From a virus (Duplodnaviria > Heunggongvirae > Uroviricota > Caudoviricetes), in the IMG/VR virus record IMGVR_UViG_2595698871_000001, positions 109,443-173,442 of that record: DNA of 64,000 nt; one strand, 5' to 3'. This document shows positions 18,180 through 46,801 of this stretch, in pieces (position 1 is the stretch's first letter; every line of letters starts with the position of its first letter). The notes beneath the pieces were generated by a model, which saw only the letters and a program-made list of their open reading frames with translations, was not told the DNA's origin and searched no databases. The position numbers were made by a program, and so were the translations under genes.

Positions 18180-18812
18180 CTAGGCGCCCCTAAGAGGCTC
18201 GAAAGGCTGCTCGCTGGGGATGTAGAGGGGGTGGCGAGGATGCCCGCCTTTGGACTTGCCGAGGCACTTGACTTCGACCCCGGTGATTTCGGCTTGCTGG
18301 ACCGCGCCATAGTCTTGATCCTTGAACTCCCCATGGACACCCCAGCCGGCGATGACGTCGGCCTTGGCGGTGACAGCGTACTCGAAAGCGTGTTGCAGGA
18401 AACGGGCGTTGAGTGGCCCGATCGGGTCGGGCGCGGCCTTCATGATCGCGGGCGACTTTGACCGGAAGGCGAAGAGGTTGACCACGATGATCCCGCCGTA
18501 GTCGTCGCGGCGCGCAAAGCCCATGCAGCGCCGGATGGTGTTGTCGTCGACTTGCGCGGTGGCGGTAGACGGATTGAGCATCATGAAGATCAGCAGCGGC
18601 TTGCTCGGGTCCCAGACCCGCATCAGCATGTAGCGGAAGGTCTCGCAGTCCGAGAGGATCGCGGCCTTGATCACGCCGTCCTCGATCACCACGTCGCCAT
18701 AGACGCCGGTGATCTCCGGATCGTCGATCGACAGTTCGGCGGTCCCGTCCTCCAGGACCCGCAGGAAGTCGCCCCAGGAGGGCGCGCTCAGTTGTGCGGT
18801 GATCGTCGTCAT
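18180..18812 (-). CDS. DUF1643-family protein
   Basis: LLIFMMLNPSTATAQVDDNTIRRCMGFA...GGIIVVNLFAFRSKSP...VIAGWGVHG matches remembered DUF1643 blocks (LNPS...DDpT.rrc...NLfa.R...aWG); start could be M10 (18821) or M13 (18812). Confidence 0.55.
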   Translation of the reverse strand: MTTITAQLSAPSWGDFLRVLEDGTAELSIDDPEITGVYGDVVIEDGVIKAAILSDCETFRYMLMRVWDPSKPLLIFMMLNPSTATAQVDDNTIRRCMGFARRDDYGGIIVVNLFAFRSKSPAIMKAAPDPIGPLNARFLQHAFEYAVTAKADVIAGWGVHGEFKDQDYGAVQQAEITGVEVKCLGKSKGGHPRHPLYIPSEQPFEPLRGA

Positions 18813-41417: not shown

Positions 41418-41941
41418 AGGATGTAGGCTCCGCCGTCGGCGCTCTCGCAGCGCTGATCGTGGAAGGCGTCCATGCCTACGCGGTAGACCTCGCAGATCGT
41501 GGGCCGCGTATGCGGCTCGTCCCAGGGCCGAATCAGGCCGTTCAGCGCCAGTTCGAAACCCTGGACCTGACCGTAGCGGGTGAAGACCGCGCCAAACGGC
41601 ACGTGCAGCGGATGCACGAGGATCATCTTGACCAGATCGAAGGTCTTGACGTCCTCGGGCATGTAGCCGTCCTGGCAGAGCACCGCCAGTTCGCAGGCCA
41701 CGCGCGTGCGCCGGCCGTAGACGTTGTCGATCTCCTCGCCGGTCAGGAACCGGTCGTCGAAGATCGGCGTCGTCCGGTCGGTCTTCTCCAGGAAGGCCAG
41801 TTGCTTCTCCGCCCACTGCCCCGCGCTCATGTAGGGCTGGTACAGGCAGGTCGCGACGATGCCGTACTTGACGCTCTTGTCGTAGAGCGTGTAGCGGCGG
41901 CCGGCGTGGTCGCGCTCGATCCAGATGGCGGGGCGCTTCAT
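41414..41941 (-). CDS. hypothetical protein (175 aa)
   Basis: Start at the internal Met (MKRPAIWIER). Confidence 0.5.
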   Translation of the reverse strand: MKRPAIWIERDHAGRRYTLYDKSVKYGIVATCLYQPYMSAGQWAEKQLAFLEKTDRTTPIFDDRFLTGEEIDNVYGRRTRVACELAVLCQDGYMPEDVKTFDLVKMILVHPLHVPFGAVFTRYGQVQGFELALNGLIRPWDEPHTRPTICEVYRVGMDAFHDQRCESADGGAYIL

Positions 41942-42246
41942 CGACGGACCACCGGCATGGTCTGGATCGAAAAATCGACGTGCTTGTGGTTGCAGTTGCC
42001 GGCGCCCGGCTGAATAGCATCCAGGGCGTCGCAAGTCCCGCGCTCCCAAGCGTCGCGCGCGGCGTAGACTTCCGAGGGCTTGGCCGAGGGGTCCACGCTG
42101 GGCATCTGGTAGCGGCGGGAGATCACGCTGTTCAGCTTGGTGGCGACGTCCTCGGCGTGCGCCAAGTCGGCGAACGCGGTGAGGTTGGTGACGCCGCCGG
42201 CGTCGTAGTCGCGGTCATCCATGACCAGAATGTAGACGGTGTCCAC
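41938..42246 (-). CDS. hypothetical protein (102 aa)
   Basis: GTG start 5 nt after a ggagg RBS. Confidence 0.5.
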   Translation of the reverse strand: MDTVYILVMDDRDYDAGGVTNLTAFADLAHAEDVATKLNSVISRRYQMPSVDPSAKPSEVYAARDAWERGTCDALDAIQPGAGNCNHKHVDFSIQTMPVVRR

Positions 42247-42320
42247 GTGGGCCTCCTTCGTTGTCGTCGGAGGCCTTCCTAGACTGGCGCGAGTGTGTTG
42301 TCAACAGCCCGAGGCCGACG
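42247..42320 (-). promoter_or_regulatory. consensus promoter/leader element
   Basis: Reverse complement reads cTGTTGACAAcacactcgcgccagtCTAGGAAGGCCTCCGACGACAACGAAGGAGGcccacGTG. Confidence 0.5.
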
Positions 42321-42524
42321 GAACTTCTCCATCAGCGCGGTGCGCTCGGCCGGCGTCATCTTGCGCTCCCAGCAGGCGTACTCGTCCTCGAACCGCGTAT
42401 GCTCGGCCCGGATGATCACGCCGTCGGGCGTGAGCCCCGACGCGTAGGGAGCCTTCATGCAGTGCCCCAGCGACTGTCCCACCCAGGGGTGCCAGAGCCG
42501 GCAGGTTCCGCACGACTGGGTCAC
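42279..42524 (-). CDS. small zinc-finger protein (81 aa); its 3' end contains the next promoter's -35
   Basis: CGTCRLWHPW...C..; ORF with good codon usage. Confidence 0.45.
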   Translation of the reverse strand: MTQSCGTCRLWHPWVGQSLGHCMKAPYASGLTPDGVIIRAEHTRFEDEYACWERKMTPAERTALMEKFRRPRAVDNTLAPV

Positions 42525-42763
42525 GCCGCCGCGACCGCCGCCATGATCACCAGGATGACCAGCCCCACCGTCACCACCGCGACTGCCGGGCAGAGGATCA
42601 GTGACAGGAAGAAGGTCAGGGTCGGGTGGTCGAGGAAGAAGTAGTCGAGGTAGGCTGGCGGATGCGGCTGGTCATAGAGATAGCCGGCCGTGAAGCCGAG
42701 GATCACCACGCCGCAGGCATAGGCGGCGATGTACCAGAGGGCGTATTTGACCGCGTTGGGCAT
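42521..42763 (-). CDS. membrane protein (2-3 TM)
   Basis: Hydrophobic 80-aa ORF. Confidence 0.5.
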   Translation of the reverse strand: MPNAVKYALWYIAAYACGVVILGFTAGYLYDQPHPPAYLDYFFLDHPTLTFFLSLILCPAVAVVTVGLVILVIMAAVAAA

Positions 42764-42948
42764 CAGAGGAACTTCTCACCGTTGTGGCAGGCGATGCCCA
42801 CCCGCGCGACGATCGCCGCGAAGTAGACCAGCAGAAGGAAAGTCTGGGACTCGATGGCGAAGCCCAGAACCCGCATGACATGCAGGGCCGAGATCGGAAC
42901 GACGAGGACGGAGACGATGATCATTAGAAGCGAGATCAGCATTTTCAT
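42763..42948 (-). CDS. small membrane protein (61 aa)
   Basis: Only the C-terminal 61 aa of the ORF-track entry is hydrophobic and codon-typical: MKMLISLLMIIVSVLVVPISALHVMRVLGFAIESQTFLLLVYFAAIVARVG. Confidence 0.45.
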   Translation of the reverse strand: MKMLISLLMIIVSVLVVPISALHVMRVLGFAIESQTFLLLVYFAAIVARVGIACHNGEKFL

Positions 42949-43271
42949 CGATCGGACCTTTGACTTTCCAGGTAGTTTATGCGTCCGCGCAGCGACGAGA
43001 TCGTGTTCTTCAGGTCCTCGATCTCCCTGGCGTGGCGCTTGTCGGCGTCTTCGGTCTCGCGCTTGTGGCGATCGCGCGTCTGACGCAACTCGGTGTCCAA
43101 CGGGTTGGGGATCACGTCGTGACCCATCGCCTGACCGTAGTTCTCGGCCGAGGTCTCGATCCCCTGGGCGATGCCAACGCGCTGCTCCTCGGTGAGCCCG
43201 TCCCAGACGTCCCAAAGGCCCTCGCCGTCGAAGGCTAGGTCCAGGCTGTCGCGCCAGTAGCTATTCGACAT
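42945..43271 (-). CDS. hypothetical protein (108 aa; coiled-coil C-terminus)
   Basis: ORF with good codon usage. Confidence 0.5.
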   Translation of the reverse strand: MSNSYWRDSLDLAFDGEGLWDVWDGLTEEQRVGIAQGIETSAENYGQAMGHDVIPNPLDTELRQTRDRHKRETEDADKRHAREIEDLKNTISSLRGRINYLESQRSDR

Positions 43272-43626
43272 CGACGTTCAGGTCCCGCTTGAGCGCCGTC
43301 GCGCAGTCGCTGCCGTGGGAGATCAGATCGCCAGAGCGCACCAGCATGGCGACGGTGGCGTCGCTGATGCGCACGCCCCGGTGCCCGATCGGGAACCAGT
43401 CACCATCGTGATCCTTGAGCAGGCCGTGGTCGCGCACCGCCCAGGACAGCGCCTGCGCCGCGCGCTGGGCGGCGGCCGTGGCGCTCTCGGCCATCTGGTG
43501 CAGGTCCTCGGGCGAGAAGCAGTTCAGCAGCTTCTCGCGCATGCCCTCGCGGTCCTCGGCCGGCGGCTTGATGAAGAACTCCAGCAGCAGGTCGACGTGG
43601 TGCTCGGGCGAATTGGTCTTCGTCAT
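43261..43626 (-). CDS. hypothetical protein (121 aa)
   Basis: ORF with good codon usage. Confidence 0.5.
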   Translation of the reverse strand: MTKTNSPEHHVDLLLEFFIKPPAEDREGMREKLLNCFSPEDLHQMAESATAAAQRAAQALSWAVRDHGLLKDHDGDWFPIGHRGVRISDATVAMLVRSGDLISHGSDCATALKRDLNVDVE

Positions 43627-43901
43627 CAGGCCCTCTGCTTGGTCACGGCGGCGTACACGACGTCGATCATCATGCCCAGGGTCGTGTCCTGGTCGGGGAA
43701 GTCCTCGGGAAGTTCGATGAAGAACTCCTCCTCCAGCGACATCGCCAGATCGACAAAGTCGAGGCTGTCGAACCGCAGGTCCGGACCGAGACGCAGGTCC
43801 TTGTGGTAGTCGTCCAGAACGATGGGCGTCTCGCTCATCATGTGCGCGAATTCGTACACCGCGATCTGGACTTCACTCCACGTGACTTTTGTATCGGCCA
43901 A
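43626..43901 (-). CDS. acyl carrier protein-like protein
   Basis: LGPDLRFDSLDFVDLAMSLEEEFFIELPEDFPD aligns with E. coli ACP [29 protein letters not shown], including the phosphopantetheine-site Ser of DSLD; TTG start with aagggga RBS. Confidence 0.65.
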   Translation of the reverse strand: MADTKVTWSEVQIAVYEFAHMMSETPIVLDDYHKDLRLGPDLRFDSLDFVDLAMSLEEEFFIELPEDFPDQDTTLGMMIDVVYAAVTKQRA

Positions 43902-43980
43902 GGACTTCCCCTTCTGCTGCTGCCCGGCGCTTCTAGCGAAGCTTCACCAGGACGTCAACACTCTAACGCCAGACCCAACT
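43902..43980 (-). promoter_or_regulatory. consensus promoter/leader element (TTGACG variant)
   Basis: Reverse complement reads gttgggtCTGGCGTTAGAGTGTTGACGtcctggtgaagcttcgCTAGAAGcgccgggcagcagcagAAGGGGAagtccTTG. Confidence 0.55.
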
Positions 43981-44628
43981 CAAGCTGAGCACGATGTCGT
44001 GGTCCTCGTAGGCGGCGCTGCGTCCGGTGATCAGCTTGATCCCCCGCAGCGGCCCCAGCCGCCAAAGCTGGACCTCCTTACGCTCATGGCGCCCCGGCAC
44101 ATGCTCCAGCAGTTCGCGGCGCTTGATCGCGATATGCTTTTGCTCGCGGTGGACGACCAGGGCGATCTTGCACGTCGGGCTCTTGCCAAACCACCGGCGC
44201 CAGTAGCCGGGCGTGTCGAGGTTGTCGAACAAGCGCGCCACGCGCTTGCTGACCGGGCGCAGCCCCGCGACCTGCCGGCGCACGTTGAGCGGCGGGAAGG
44301 TGCAGGGCGGCCAGACGTCGAGCAGGCTCTGGCGCAGGCGGCGAAACTCCCAGGCCAACATGGCATTGTCCTTGGAGTTGTTGCACGCCACGCACGCCGC
44401 CGCGACATTGCTGTCGTGGTTCGAGCCGCCCTCGGCCTTGGCCTCCAGGTGTTCGATCGTGACCTCGTCCGGCTCCAGGTTGCCGGCTTTCTTACCGACG
44501 CGCCGGCGATATTTCATCTGCCCCGTGCAGTAGGTGCAGAGGCCGCCCGACTCCAGGAAGAGCCGTTGCCGGCGGTTTGGGGCCGCTGGCGGGAGGGGAT
44601 CGTAGACGATGACGTCAGAGGACGACAT
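43963..44628 (-). CDS. HNH endonuclease
   Basis: CTYCTGQM...TIEHLEAKAEGGSNHDSNVAAACVACNNSK: two Cys pairs flanking a His-Asn-His core. Confidence 0.7.
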   Translation of the reverse strand: MSSSDVIVYDPLPPAAPNRRQRLFLESGGLCTYCTGQMKYRRRVGKKAGNLEPDEVTIEHLEAKAEGGSNHDSNVAAACVACNNSKDNAMLAWEFRRLRQSLLDVWPPCTFPPLNVRRQVAGLRPVSKRVARLFDNLDTPGYWRRWFGKSPTCKIALVVHREQKHIAIKRRELLEHVPGRHERKEVQLWRLGPLRGIKLITGRSAAYEDHDIVLSLSWVWR

Positions 44629-45055
44629 AGCCGTCCTCGCCGTTCTCGAACGCGAGATCAGCGAAGCGCAGGTTCTCCAGGGCGACGTTGAACGCCTCCT
44701 CCGACCCGCCGACCTTGGCCCAGATCGCCCGGCGAGCGATCACGGTGGTGAAGAGGTTGGGCGAGCGGCCCTGGCGGACCTCGTCGGCCGCCAGATCGAC
44801 GAGCACGCGGTAGGCCGCGCCCGTCACGGTTTGGCGGCTGCGCACGTCCACGAGACCCAGGCCCCGCAGGGTGTCCAGGTAGGCGCTCAGGTCTTTGACC
44901 GTGACGCCGGCCGTCAGGGCGAAGGTCGTCGGGTTGGTGTCGAGCACCTTCAGCGACTCGGCGCGGCGCAGGACCACCTCCTCGCGGGCCTCGATCGCCA
45001 GTTGCTCGTCCGACTTCTTCTCGGCTTGTTTGATCTTGCGCAGGGGGTTCAGCAT
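44615..45055 (-). CDS. hypothetical protein (146 aa)
   Basis: Start at the internal Met (MLNPLRKIKQ); the upstream part is shadow. Confidence 0.45.
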   Translation of the reverse strand: MLNPLRKIKQAEKKSDEQLAIEAREEVVLRRAESLKVLDTNPTTFALTAGVTVKDLSAYLDTLRGLGLVDVRSRQTVTGAAYRVLVDLAADEVRQGRSPNLFTTVIARRAIWAKVGGSEEAFNVALENLRFADLAFENGEDGYVVL

Positions 45056-45063
45056 GGGGTCTC

Positions 45064-45456
45064 CTAGTAGAGGACGCTCCAAGACGTCTGGGTCTTGGCG
45101 TAGGCGGATGGGGTGATGTAGCCGCGATCCTTGAGATCGTCGATCAGGGCGAGGGTCGTCGGCAGGAACGCTTCTTCGCTCAGGGGCTCTTGGCCCGGCT
45201 CGCAGTGGTTGCGCGCCCACCAGTAGAGGCGGTGGTTGAGCCGCAGCGTCGTGCGCTCGAACGCCCGGCGCGGGTTGATCTCGTTGGCCAGGATGTGCAT
45301 GAGCCAGCCCGCCAGGGTATAGCGCGAGGAATTGCCGACCGGGTCGCGATAGAAGCCCGCCTGCTTGAGCGCCTCGAACTCGGCCTGGAACTCCGGCAGG
45401 AACCGCACGAGGCGGCCGAACGGCTCATGGAAGACGACGATCTGCCGATCATTCAT
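45064..45456 (-). CDS. hypothetical protein (130 aa)
   Basis: ORF with good codon usage. Confidence 0.5.
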   Translation of the reverse strand: MNDRQIVVFHEPFGRLVRFLPEFQAEFEALKQAGFYRDPVGNSSRYTLAGWLMHILANEINPRRAFERTTLRLNHRLYWWARNHCEPGQEPLSEEAFLPTTLALIDDLKDRGYITPSAYAKTQTSWSVLY

Positions 45457-45814
45457 CGGCCTGATACCCCAGGTACGGGCGCAGGTTGGCCAGATCGTCC
45501 TCCTCCAGGCGGATGGACGTGAGCTTCGAGCACCGGGCGTTCTCGGCCATCTTGGTGTAGCGGCTGGCGAGGTTCCAGTAGGTCCTCGCGTGGTCCCACC
45601 AACGATAGTTGTTATCGAGGACCTTCTCGGCTTCCTCGCGGGTCACCGGCCGGCGCTGGAAGAGCCACCACGGCGCGACGCTGGTGGTCTCGACCTTCAT
45701 GATCTTGGCGATCGTCTCCTCGCGGATGGCGTCGCCCTGGGCCTCGAAATCCTCGGCGCCCTTGGTGGCGGCCTCGATCAAGACGAGGCGGTCGACTTCG
45801 GCGCTCATGCTCAC
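45449..45814 (-). CDS. hypothetical protein (121 aa)
   Basis: ORF with good codon usage. Confidence 0.5.
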   Translation of the reverse strand: MSMSAEVDRLVLIEAATKGAEDFEAQGDAIREETIAKIMKVETTSVAPWWLFQRRPVTREEAEKVLDNNYRWWDHARTYWNLASRYTKMAENARCSKLTSIRLEEDDLANLRPYLGYQADE

Positions 45815-46080
45815 TTCAGCTTCTCCCCGACATAGACCTCCAGGAAACGCGTTTGCGTTTCGGGGTCCTGGAACATCCAGATGGCGTACTTGGTGCGCGG
45901 GAACGGCTGGCGGAAGAACTCCACCCCGCCCAGCGTCTGCTTGGCGATCGGGGGCGTCGGCGCCGCCAGCGGCGTCTTGACCACAAACGGGTAGCGTTCG
46001 AGGTGCTTAATCACCGCCATGGAGCAGTCGCGCTCGCGCGTCGTCTTCTCGGGCAGGTCGCGGGTCCAGGTCGTAGTCAA
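45811..46080 (-). CDS. hypothetical protein (89 aa)
   Basis: ATGA overlap. Confidence 0.5.
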   Translation of the reverse strand: MTTTWTRDLPEKTTRERDCSMAVIKHLERYPFVVKTPLAAPTPPIAKQTLGGVEFFRQPFPRTKYAIWMFQDPETQTRFLEVYVGEKLK

Positions 46081-46229
46081 AGGGCCTTCTCCGAGGCACG
46101 GGCGATGATCGCCACCAAGAGGATGGAAAAGAGGGCGGCCGTGATCATCGGCGGCTGGCGGTTGTAGCCGTCGACGAAGCCTTGGATCACGCCGACCAGC
46201 ATGGCGGCGCCGTAAGCGGACCAGAATTT
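46077..46229 (-). CDS. small membrane peptide (about 50 aa), tentative
   Basis: TTG/ATG start coupled to the upstream stop; hydrophobic ...AAMLVGVIQGF...MITAALFSILLVAIIARA. Confidence 0.3.
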   Translation of the reverse strand, partial: KFWSAYGAAMLVGVIQGFVDGYNRQPPMITAALFSILLVAIIARASEKAL

Positions 46230-46801
46230 CAAGCCGTGATCTCCTCGAAGCGGCCGTCCATGAACTCGGCCTCGCGCCGGCCCCAGACCTGCCCGCCGCC
46301 GTCGATGTAGCTCAGCAGGGTCTCGTCGTCCTGGATCGGGGTCTCGCACTGGATGCGGATGGTCCCCACCACGGCATAATCGGAGCCCCGCTTCTTGTGG
46401 CGGAACCGGCGCATGCCGCGCGGCAGTTCGGCCAGGAAGGCTTTCAGGGCGTCGGCCATCTTGGCGACGCCATGCGGGAAGTGCGAGCCCGGCCCCCGAA
46501 CCCATTGATAGACCGTCGCCAGGGCAAAGCGCCCGGCGGCGATCTCGCCGGTCGGGTCCTTGCGGAGCCGATCGGGCGCGTGATCTTCGAGGTAGTTGGT
46601 CCCCAGGAGCGCCATCATGTGGGCCTCGTCGACCGTGGTCGGAACCCTCAGGAAACCCTCGGGCGTCGCGCCGTCGAGCGCTTTGATCGCGCCCAGCAGG
46701 ACCGCCGCCTTTTCCGTATGCCACTCACGCCCGCCCGGCTCGGGCGAGTGTGCGGCATGATAGAGGTGGTAGTCCATGATTTCGTGCAGGGCTTCGCTCA
46801 T
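46229..46801 (-). CDS. hypothetical protein (190 aa)
   Basis: ggaagg RBS; first gene after the promoter. Confidence 0.5.
   Translation of the reverse strand: MSEALHEIMDYHLYHAAHSPEPGGREWHTEKAAVLLGAIKALDGATPEGFLRVPTTVDEAHMMALLGTNYLEDHAPDRLRKDPTGEIAAGRFALATVYQWVRGPGSHFPHGVAKMADALKAFLAELPRGMRRFRHKKRGSDYAVVGTIRIQCETPIQDDETLLSYIDGGGQVWGRREAEFMDGRFEEITA

What the first reader, a model, noticed from the sequence alone, without database searches (positions are those of the whole stretch)
43626..43901. Phage-encoded acyl carrier protein homologue with no cognate synthase or acyltransferase nearby
The sequence aligns with the ACP helix-II region, including the DSLD phosphopantetheinylation site. It is the first gene behind a consensus promoter and is flanked only by unknowns and an HNH endonuclease. 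Phage ACPs are rare. It may hijack the host AcpS/Fab machinery, feed an unknown tailoring enzyme among the neighbouring hypothetical proteins, or act as an inhibitor decoy of host lipid synthesis.
Basis: partly seen in the sequence, partly recalled or inferred. Interest (0 to 1): 0.55.

Follow-up and report, generated by a model that had tools for sequence, protein, structure and literature searches.

The report
Orphan acyl carrier protein in Caulobacter phage
The gene is a real but already annotated acyl carrier protein of the giant Caulobacter phage CcrRogue; it has no partner enzymes in the phage genome, so it probably relies on host enzymes, and two related phages have lost it, so it is an optional extra.

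Summary
The window is Caulobacter phage CcrRogue (100% identity). The ORF at 43626-43901 (minus strand, 91 aa, TTG start) is a genuine acyl carrier protein (ACP). It passes Pfam PF00550 above the gathering threshold. The DSLD serine sits at the start of helix II, and helix II is 12/16 identical to E. coli AcpP. Its pI is 4.05. The AlphaFold model (pLDDT 87) matches solved ACPs at 2.0-2.6 A. GenBank has called it "putative acyl carrier protein" since 2012, and orphan phage ACPs are documented, so it is not new.

A conserved Caulobacter RpoD-type promoter lies about 30 nt upstream. The neighbours are small unknowns plus an HNH gene. A Pfam scan of 176 further ORFs found no phosphopantetheinyl transferase, ketosynthase, acyltransferase, adenylating enzyme or thioesterase anywhere in the 224-kb genome.

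Two things are new here. Phage Ccr5 carries an in-frame 132-bp deletion that removes the serine and helices II-III. Phage BL57 lacks the gene entirely. Both keep the two downstream genes, so the ACP is dispensable and those neighbours do not depend on it.

Most likely it is modified by host AcpS and docks on host fatty-acid or lipid enzymes as an accessory early gene. This is inferred, not shown. Interest is low to moderate.

The parts
43626..43901 (-). ACP-homologue ORF, 91 aa, TTG start (CcrRogue gp229, D869_gp229; the GenBank CDS is the shorter 43626-43859)
   Evidence: ORF list. PF00550 above gathering threshold. NCBIfam and PHROG ACP profile matches. 61 PDB sequences by phmmer, all named ones ACPs. 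AF2 pLDDT 87.4 and Foldseek top hits nearly all ACPs. 100% identical to NC_019408.
43758..43769 (-). DSLD motif; Ser46 (43764-43766) is the predicted 4'-phosphopantetheine attachment site at the N-terminus of helix II
   Evidence: Read from the sequence. Invariant in the Rogue, BL10, phiCbK and metagenomic orthologues and in E. coli AcpP. Helix II is modelled as residues 46-60.
43930..43958 (-). Caulobacter RpoD (sigma-73)-type promoter: -35 TTGACGT (43958-43952), 14-nt spacer, -10 GCTAGAAG (43937-43930)
   Evidence: Pattern scan: 5 matches in the window against 0.12 expected. -35 and -10 are invariant while the spacer varies across Rogue, BL10 and phiCbK. It belongs to a family of at least 9 similar promoters in the window. 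Consensus taken from PMC8144410. No transcription start site data are available.
43906..43915 (-). Shine-Dalgarno sequence (AGAAGGGGAAG) 4-5 nt upstream of the TTG start
   Evidence: Read from the sequence. Conserved in BL10; GGGGGAGAG in phiCbK.
43261..43626 (-). gp230, 121 aa, unknown function. Its ATG shares one base with the ACP stop codon (TGATG), which suggests translational coupling.
   Evidence: Conserved in 26 Caulobacter phage records. PHROG 12903, unknown function. No Pfam or NCBIfam match. Retained in the ACP-less phages Ccr5 and BL57.
42945..43271 (-). gp231, 108 aa, unknown function (conserved GHDVIPNPL motif, charged C-terminal helix); overlaps the end of gp230
   Evidence: Retained in Ccr5 and BL57.
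43963..44628 (-). HNH endonuclease (gp228), last gene of the upstream transcription unit
   Evidence: PF01844 E=5.9e-7. PHROG 12576 E=2.3e-143.

Best explanation
The gene encodes a small, very acidic type-II acyl carrier protein. It is made from a host-RpoD-type promoter as the first gene of a short operon of six small genes.

The phage has no phosphopantetheinyl transferase and no ACP-dependent enzyme of its own. The protein must therefore be converted to the holo form by the host AcpS. It would then dock, through its almost canonical recognition helix II, on host ACP-client enzymes of fatty-acid, phospholipid or lipid A synthesis.

On this reading it is an accessory 'auxiliary metabolic' gene. 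It tops up or biases the host acyl-ACP pool while host gene expression is being shut down. It sits alongside other host-like housekeeping genes in this phage (NAD salvage, tRNAs, PTH2, RNR).

Shown: ACP homology and fold, the intact serine motif, purifying selection, the promoter motif, the absence of phage partner enzymes, and natural loss in two relatives.

Inferred: modification by AcpS, use by host Fab/Lpx/Pls enzymes, and early expression.
For: ACP identity. The AF2 model has pLDDT 87.4 with helices at 8-22, 46-60 and 75-90. Nearly all of the Foldseek top 50 are ACPs, with probability 1.0 and rmsd mostly 2.0-2.6 A.

Attachment site and recognition helix: DSLD, L52, LEE and F60 are invariant across two phage genera that are only 35% identical overall. 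Helix II is 12/16 identical to E. coli AcpP, against 29% for the whole protein. This includes the acidic positions D45, D48, D51, E57 and E58. By established knowledge of AcpS-ACP and Fab-ACP complexes, these positions make the partner contacts.

Physical properties: pI 4.05 and charge -14, like AcpP. dN/dS is 0.31.

No phage partner enzymes: whole-genome annotation, plus a Pfam scan of 176 unannotated or vaguely annotated ORFs of >=95 aa. That scan gave no ACPS, ketoacyl-synt, Acyl_transf, AMP-binding, thioesterase, FabA/Z or condensation domain. Each result list held fewer than 25 families, so the lists are complete.

Promoter: host-type and conserved.

Host shut-off context: the phiCbK early factor TgrL is reported to inhibit host transcription, and about 41% of phiCbK genes are early (PMC10688885).

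Precedent: a preprint predicts a phage ACP-host FabZ interface for another phage.
Against: There is no experimental evidence that Ser46 is modified or that any host enzyme accepts this protein.

It falls far below the AcpP equivalog cutoff (35.5 against 70.45 bits). The helix III region carries a family-specific, invariant Phe-Pro (F68-P69) and is modelled without a helix, so acyl-chain handling may differ from AcpP.

The gene is missing or crippled in two viable relatives. Any benefit must therefore be conditional.

Gene-level expression data for the phiCbK orthologue could not be read, because the supplementary table was truncated when stored.
Confidence: 0.45

Rival explanations
1. ACP mimic or decoy. 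The protein uses the conserved acidic helix II to bind, and so inhibit or re-programme, a host ACP-client. Candidates include AcpS, FabZ/LpxA, PlsX or the ACP-sensing SpoT. It would act as a host-takeover effector rather than carry acyl groups.
For: It sits in an operon of small proteins of unknown function behind a host-type promoter, which is typical of host-takeover cassettes. Helix II is the best-conserved part. It is highly diverged from housekeeping AcpP elsewhere. It has a family-specific FP motif in place of a normal helix III.
Against: A decoy does not need the serine, yet the full DSLD is invariant in all intact orthologues. No interaction data exist. Loss in Ccr5 and BL57 shows that it is not a core takeover function.
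Confidence: 0.2
2. Dedicated carrier for a phage-specific pathway. The partners would be unrecognised enzymes, such as the translationally coupled gp230 and gp231 or other hypothetical proteins, which load and use a cargo on the phosphopantetheine arm.
For: The ACP stop codon overlaps the gp230 start, and gp230 overlaps gp231. The three genes are syntenic in Poindextervirus and Shapirovirus. About 87% of PHROG families have no known function, so novel enzymes cannot be excluded.
Against: gp230 (121 aa) and gp231 (108 aa) have no Pfam or NCBIfam match and no relatives outside these phages, apart from one weak Vibrio phage hit. Both are retained intact in Ccr5, which has an in-frame ACP deletion, and in BL57, which has no ACP gene. 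They therefore function without it. No adenylation, acyltransferase, ketosynthase or thioesterase domain exists anywhere in the genome.
Confidence: 0.15
3. A near-neutral passenger gene on its way to loss, with no significant function in present-day phages.
For: Two independent natural losses were seen, a deletion in Ccr5 and absence in BL57. The family is tiny and confined to phiCbK-like phages. No relatives were found in 185,579 species genomes or in JGI metagenomes.
Against: dN/dS is 0.31. The functional motif and helix II are preserved across about 65% sequence divergence. The gene is intact in 22 of the 24 Caulobacter phage records matched by tblastn. The promoter and Shine-Dalgarno sequence are conserved.
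Confidence: 0.1

Closest known systems
Bacterial type-II FAS acyl carrier protein AcpP (PF00550; TIGR00517), e.g. E. coli AcpP
   Same: Size class, pI about 4, the helix-bundle fold of solved ACPs, the DSLD serine at the start of helix II, and helix II 12/16 identical. It is the best-scoring NCBIfam model.
   Different: Only 29% identical overall and well below the equivalog cutoff (35.5 against 70.45 bits). It has a roughly 10-residue longer N-terminus and an invariant Phe-Pro in the helix III region. It is not in a fabD-fabG-acpP-fabF cluster; it is encoded by a virus behind its own promoter.
Orphan phage-encoded ACPs annotated as auxiliary metabolic genes (PHROG 5934 and 4154; e.g. Prochlorococcus phage P-HM1 PHM1_027, Erythrobacter phage vB_EliS-R6L ORF32)
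   Same: A stand-alone ACP domain in a lytic phage with no partner enzymes nearby and unclear function. Profile match to PHROG 5934 at E=1.8e-9, and 44% identity over 52 aa to the P-HM1 ACP.
   Different: It forms its own PHROG (14581, labelled 'unknown function', E=3.5e-40) and is found only in phiCbK-like Caulobacter phages. P-HM1's protein is longer (158 aa) and has different neighbours.
Specialised alphaproteobacterial ACPs (NodF, AcpXL, RkpF) and other dedicated carriers (AsbD, DltC, type-II PKS ACPs)
   Same: Divergent stand-alone carrier proteins with a DSL serine. Type-II PKS ACP AntF is the top Foldseek hit, and there are weak NCBIfam hits to AsbD and other ACP models.
   Different: Those carriers are encoded next to their loading and using enzymes (my own knowledge of these systems). 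Here no such enzyme exists in the genome. Their profile scores are lower than those for AcpP.

Membership tests
Carrier-protein / PP-binding superfamily (Pfam PF00550) | Profile match at or above the curated gathering score | tested here: met
   22.1 bits against a cutoff of 20.8, E=1.9e-4. The margin is small, but it is backed by TIGR00517 at E=6.9e-9 and 61 PDB sequences, all named ones ACPs, by phmmer. UniRef names the BL10 orthologue 'Carrier domain-containing protein'.
Carrier-protein / PP-binding superfamily (Pfam PF00550) | Conserved (D)SL serine at the N-terminus of helix II | tested here: met
   D45-S46-L47-D48 is invariant in all intact orthologues and aligns with E. coli D35-S36-L37-D38. 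The modelled helix II starts at residue 46.
Carrier-protein / PP-binding superfamily (Pfam PF00550) | Compact helical-bundle ACP fold | tested here: met
   AF2 with an 88-sequence alignment gave pLDDT 87.4 and pTM 0.73. Nearly all of the Foldseek PDB top 50 are ACPs, with TM (target) mostly 0.7-0.85 and rmsd mostly 2.0-2.6 A. Caveat: the alignment consists of ACP homologues, and helix III is not modelled as a helix.
Carrier-protein / PP-binding superfamily (Pfam PF00550) | Covalent 4'-phosphopantetheine on the serine in vivo | not testable with these tools
   Needs mass spectrometry or an in vitro AcpS assay.
Housekeeping AcpP (NCBIfam TIGR00517 equivalog) | Score at or above the equivalog cutoff | tested here: not met
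   35.5 bits against a cutoff of 70.45.
Housekeeping AcpP (NCBIfam TIGR00517 equivalog) | Genomic association with fab genes (fabD, fabG, fabF) | tested here: not met
   No fab-type domain was found next to the gene or anywhere in the phage genome.
Orphan phage ACP auxiliary genes (PHROG 5934/4154) | Phage-encoded stand-alone ACP domain without adjacent partner enzymes | tested here: met
   PHROG 5934 at E=1.8e-9 and PHROG 4154 at E=8.6e-4. The context has no partner enzymes. The same pattern is seen in P-HM1.
Dedicated carrier with cognate loading enzyme (NRPS/PKS/Dlt/AcpXL type) | A cognate adenylating enzyme, acyltransferase, ketosynthase or phosphopantetheinyl transferase encoded with it | tested here: not met
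   None was detected at Pfam E<=1e-3 in 176 ORFs or among the annotated genes of the whole genome. Enzymes with entirely novel folds cannot be excluded.

The most novel reading that the evidence does not exclude
The ACP look-alike is not a metabolic helper but an early host-takeover effector. It would be an ACP mimic, possibly acting with the co-translated gp230 and gp231. It would bind a host ACP-sensing or ACP-dependent protein, for example SpoT, AcpS, or FabZ/LpxA at the lipid A branch point. That would rewire the stringent response or envelope synthesis during infection.
Probability: 0.15. Interest if true: 0.6.

Novelty: already known. Interest (0 to 1): 0.25.

Why it matters
As a gene identification it adds nothing, because the CDS has been labelled 'putative acyl carrier protein' since 2012 and orphan phage ACPs are a recognised class. 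No phage ACP function was reported as established in the papers read here.

This family is nonetheless a convenient test case. Its host is a genetic model organism. The promoter and operon are defined. There are two naturally ACP-less relatives, Ccr5 and BL57, to compare against. If a clear role were shown, whether boosting lipid synthesis or mimicking ACP to control host enzymes, it would explain a recurrent auxiliary gene in many large phages.

Tried and rejected
- The E. coli-type sigma-70 promoter scan found nothing in 41500-46500. The promoter appears only with the Caulobacter RpoD consensus.
- The first AF2 run used a 3-sequence alignment and was poor (pLDDT 68.9). Its Foldseek hits were weak, though mostly ACPs. 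It was superseded by the 88-sequence run.
- The homologue search for gp230 returned only three close relatives.
- Gene-level phiCbK RNA-seq (S3 Table of PMC10688885) could not be read. The stored file is cut off within the host-gene sheet.
- The Gill et al. 2012 genome paper does not discuss the ACP.
- Scans of 185,579 species genomes and of JGI metagenomes found no member of this phage ACP subfamily. The genome scan found only generic ACPs of Firmicutes and Chloroflexi.
- Rejected: that this is a recently captured host acpP. It is only 29% identical to AcpP-type proteins and below the equivalog cutoff.
- Rejected: that the nearby 'cytidyltransferase' gp272 supplies CoA or phosphopantetheine. 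It lies next to the nicotinamide phosphoribosyltransferase gene. The set of ORFs that included it gave a NUDIX match but no ACP-related domain.

Full report
**Origin of the window.** Bases 42000-46000 are 100% identical to Caulobacter phage CcrRogue (JX100814 / NC_019408, 223,720 bp). This is a phiCbK-like giant siphovirus of the genus Poindextervirus. Window position equals record position minus 109,442. The CDS under the finding is D869_gp229, which the record already annotates as 'putative acyl carrier protein'. The orthologues in phiCbK, Magneto, Swift and Karma carry the same label. The 2012 genome paper does not discuss the gene.

**The observation.**
- The ORF lies on the minus strand from TTG at 43901 to TGA at 43626 and encodes 91 aa.
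- The record's CDS starts at an internal GTG (43859, 77 aa). The TTG start is better supported. It follows a Shine-Dalgarno sequence, AAGGGGAAG. The N-terminus aligns with the BL10 and phiCbK orthologues. The PHROG match covers residues 7-88.
- The protein matches Pfam PP-binding above the gathering score (22.1 against 20.8 bits).
- It matches NCBIfam acyl_carrier TIGR00517 at 6.9e-9, below the equivalog cutoff.
- It matches the PHROG ACP family 5934 at 1.8e-9.
- phmmer finds 61 distinct PDB sequences at E<=0.01, and all the named ones are ACPs.
- DSLD (Ser46) aligns with E. coli D35-S36-L37-D38. Helix II is 12/16 identical to AcpP, against 29% for the whole protein.
- pI is 4.05 and net charge is -14, compared with -15 for AcpP.
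- An AlphaFold model built on 88 homologues has pLDDT 87.4. Its helices span 8-22, 46-60 (starting at the serine) and 75-90.
- Nearly all of the Foldseek top 50 PDB matches are ACPs, at rmsd mostly 2.0-2.6 A.
- GC3 is 0.85, and dN/dS against BL10 is 0.31.

**Distribution.** In a library of 1.84 billion representative proteins, only two close representatives exist, the Rogue/BL10 type and the phiCbK type. After those come about 1,270 generic ACP-like hits. No member of this subfamily was found in 185,579 species genomes or in JGI metagenomes. The family is therefore confined to phiCbK-like Caulobacter phages plus one short metagenomic contig. Between the two phage genera the protein is 35% identical. 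D41, L42, DSLD, L52, LEE, F60, P65, F68-P69 and T74-L75-G76 are invariant. The F-P pair falls in the helix III region, and the model has no helix there.

**Context.**
- The upstream gene is an HNH endonuclease.
- In the 61-bp gap lies TTGACGT-N14-GCTAGAAG. This matches the Caulobacter RpoD consensus TTGaCgS / GCtANAWC (PMC8144410).
- The two boxes are invariant in Rogue, BL10 and phiCbK, while the spacer differs.
- The promoter is one of at least nine of the same family in the window (TGTTGACA/G ... CTAnAA); shuffled sequence gave none.
- The next promoter of this family on the same strand is at 42306. The unit is therefore ACP-gp230-gp231-gp232-gp233-gp234, all encoding proteins of 59-121 aa.
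- The ACP stop codon shares a base with the gp230 start codon (TGATG), and gp230 overlaps gp231.
- None of the neighbours has a Pfam or NCBIfam match. They fall in PHROGs of unknown function.

**Partner enzymes.** The whole-genome annotation lists no phosphopantetheinyl transferase, ketosynthase, acyltransferase, adenylating enzyme or thioesterase. I also scanned 176 unannotated or vaguely annotated ORFs of >=95 aa, covering the genome up to the right terminal repeat, which duplicates the left one. The scan was run against Pfam in three batches. Only 20, 9 and 2 families matched, and none is related to ACPs. The ACP is therefore an orphan in the full sense. If it is modified, the host AcpS must do it.

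**Natural loss.**
- tblastn finds gp230 and gp231 in 26 Caulobacter phage records but the ACP in only 24.
- In Ccr5 an in-frame 132-bp deletion removes 44 residues: the end of loop I, DSLD, helix II and the helix III region. It leaves a 41-aa remnant that still overlaps the gp230 start.
- In BL57 the gene is absent. The HNH gene is followed by a 91-bp spacer containing a TTGACA box, and then by the gp230 homologue.
- Both phages were isolated and grown on C. crescentus.
- The ACP is therefore dispensable in laboratory conditions, and gp230 and gp231 do not depend on it.

**Mechanism.** The preserved serine and recognition helix, the purifying selection, the own promoter and the lack of phage partners best fit a true carrier. 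It would be activated by host AcpS and used by host ACP-client enzymes, as an accessory gene that supports or biases lipid metabolism during infection. This fits a genome that also carries NAD-salvage, RNR, PTH2 and many tRNA genes. It also fits the reported inhibition of host transcription early in phiCbK infection (PMC10688885). This mechanism is inference, and I give it about 0.45. Rivals are an ACP mimic acting on a host client (0.2), a dedicated carrier for unrecognised phage enzymes (0.15) and a decaying passenger gene (0.1).

**Comparison and novelty.** The protein is a member of the PP-binding superfamily; all testable features are met. It is not an AcpP equivalog, because both the score and the gene context fail. 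It belongs to the known class of orphan phage ACPs. Examples are P-HM1 and Erythrobacter phage R6L, about which the authors state that such homologues occur in several phages with unclear function. A 2026 preprint predicts a phage ACP-host FabZ contact. Since this exact CDS is already annotated, the finding is 'already known'. What this analysis adds is the corrected start codon, the conserved promoter and operon, the genome-wide absence of partner enzymes, and the two natural loss variants.

Noticed in passing
L030:1364-1489 (Caulobacter phage Ccr5, KY555144.1) and L029:1406-1498 (phage BL57, PQ287320.1): Ccr5 has an in-frame 132-bp deletion in the ACP gene that removes the DSLD serine and helices II-III, leaving a 41-aa remnant. 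BL57 has no ACP gene between the HNH gene and the gp230 homologue. Both keep gp230 and gp231.
   Followed up: yes
window 43859 vs 43901 (minus strand): The GenBank/RefSeq CDS for CcrRogue gp229 starts at an internal GTG (77 aa). The Shine-Dalgarno sequence, the orthologue alignment and the PHROG coverage support the TTG at 43901 (91 aa), which restores helix I.
   Followed up: partly
window 6844, 26783, 33714, 38925, 42260, 46813, 48965, 56845, 58803, 61893 (plus one intragenic copy at 18540): The 10-mer CGACGACAAC occurs 11 times against 0.2 expected. Ten copies sit in the same architecture: (TGGCGTGAGAG)TGTTGACA, about 16 nt, CTAnAAG, about 8 nt, CGACGACAAC, 1-4 nt, GGAGG, start codon. This is a conserved leader element between the RpoD-like promoters and the ribosome-binding sites. 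The ACP promoter shares the -35, the -10 and the upstream TGGCGTTAGAG, but lacks this leader.
   Followed up: partly
L002:3252-3986 (phiCbK gp220 HNH) vs L002:3983-4240 (ACP): In phiCbK the annotated HNH ORF runs through the conserved promoter and overlaps the ACP start. The promoter is therefore embedded in the 3' end of the annotated upstream coding sequence rather than in an intergenic gap.
   Followed up: partly
window 42945-43271 (minus strand), gp231: This small protein has a strongly conserved YG-A-GHDVIPNPL motif and a charged C-terminal helix. It has weak relatives in two other PHROGs (21617, 22300) and in Vibrio phage PWH3a-P1 (32% identity over 77 aa). Its function is unknown.
   Followed up: no
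whole CcrRogue genome (L004-L007, L001): The Pfam scan of hypothetical ORFs found host-like helper domains that the record does not name, or names only vaguely: PTH2 peptidyl-tRNA hydrolase, NUDIX, HD/HD_4, SLOG-family YAcAr, DUF1643, DUF6011, DUF6197 (two copies) and DUF7831.
   Followed up: no
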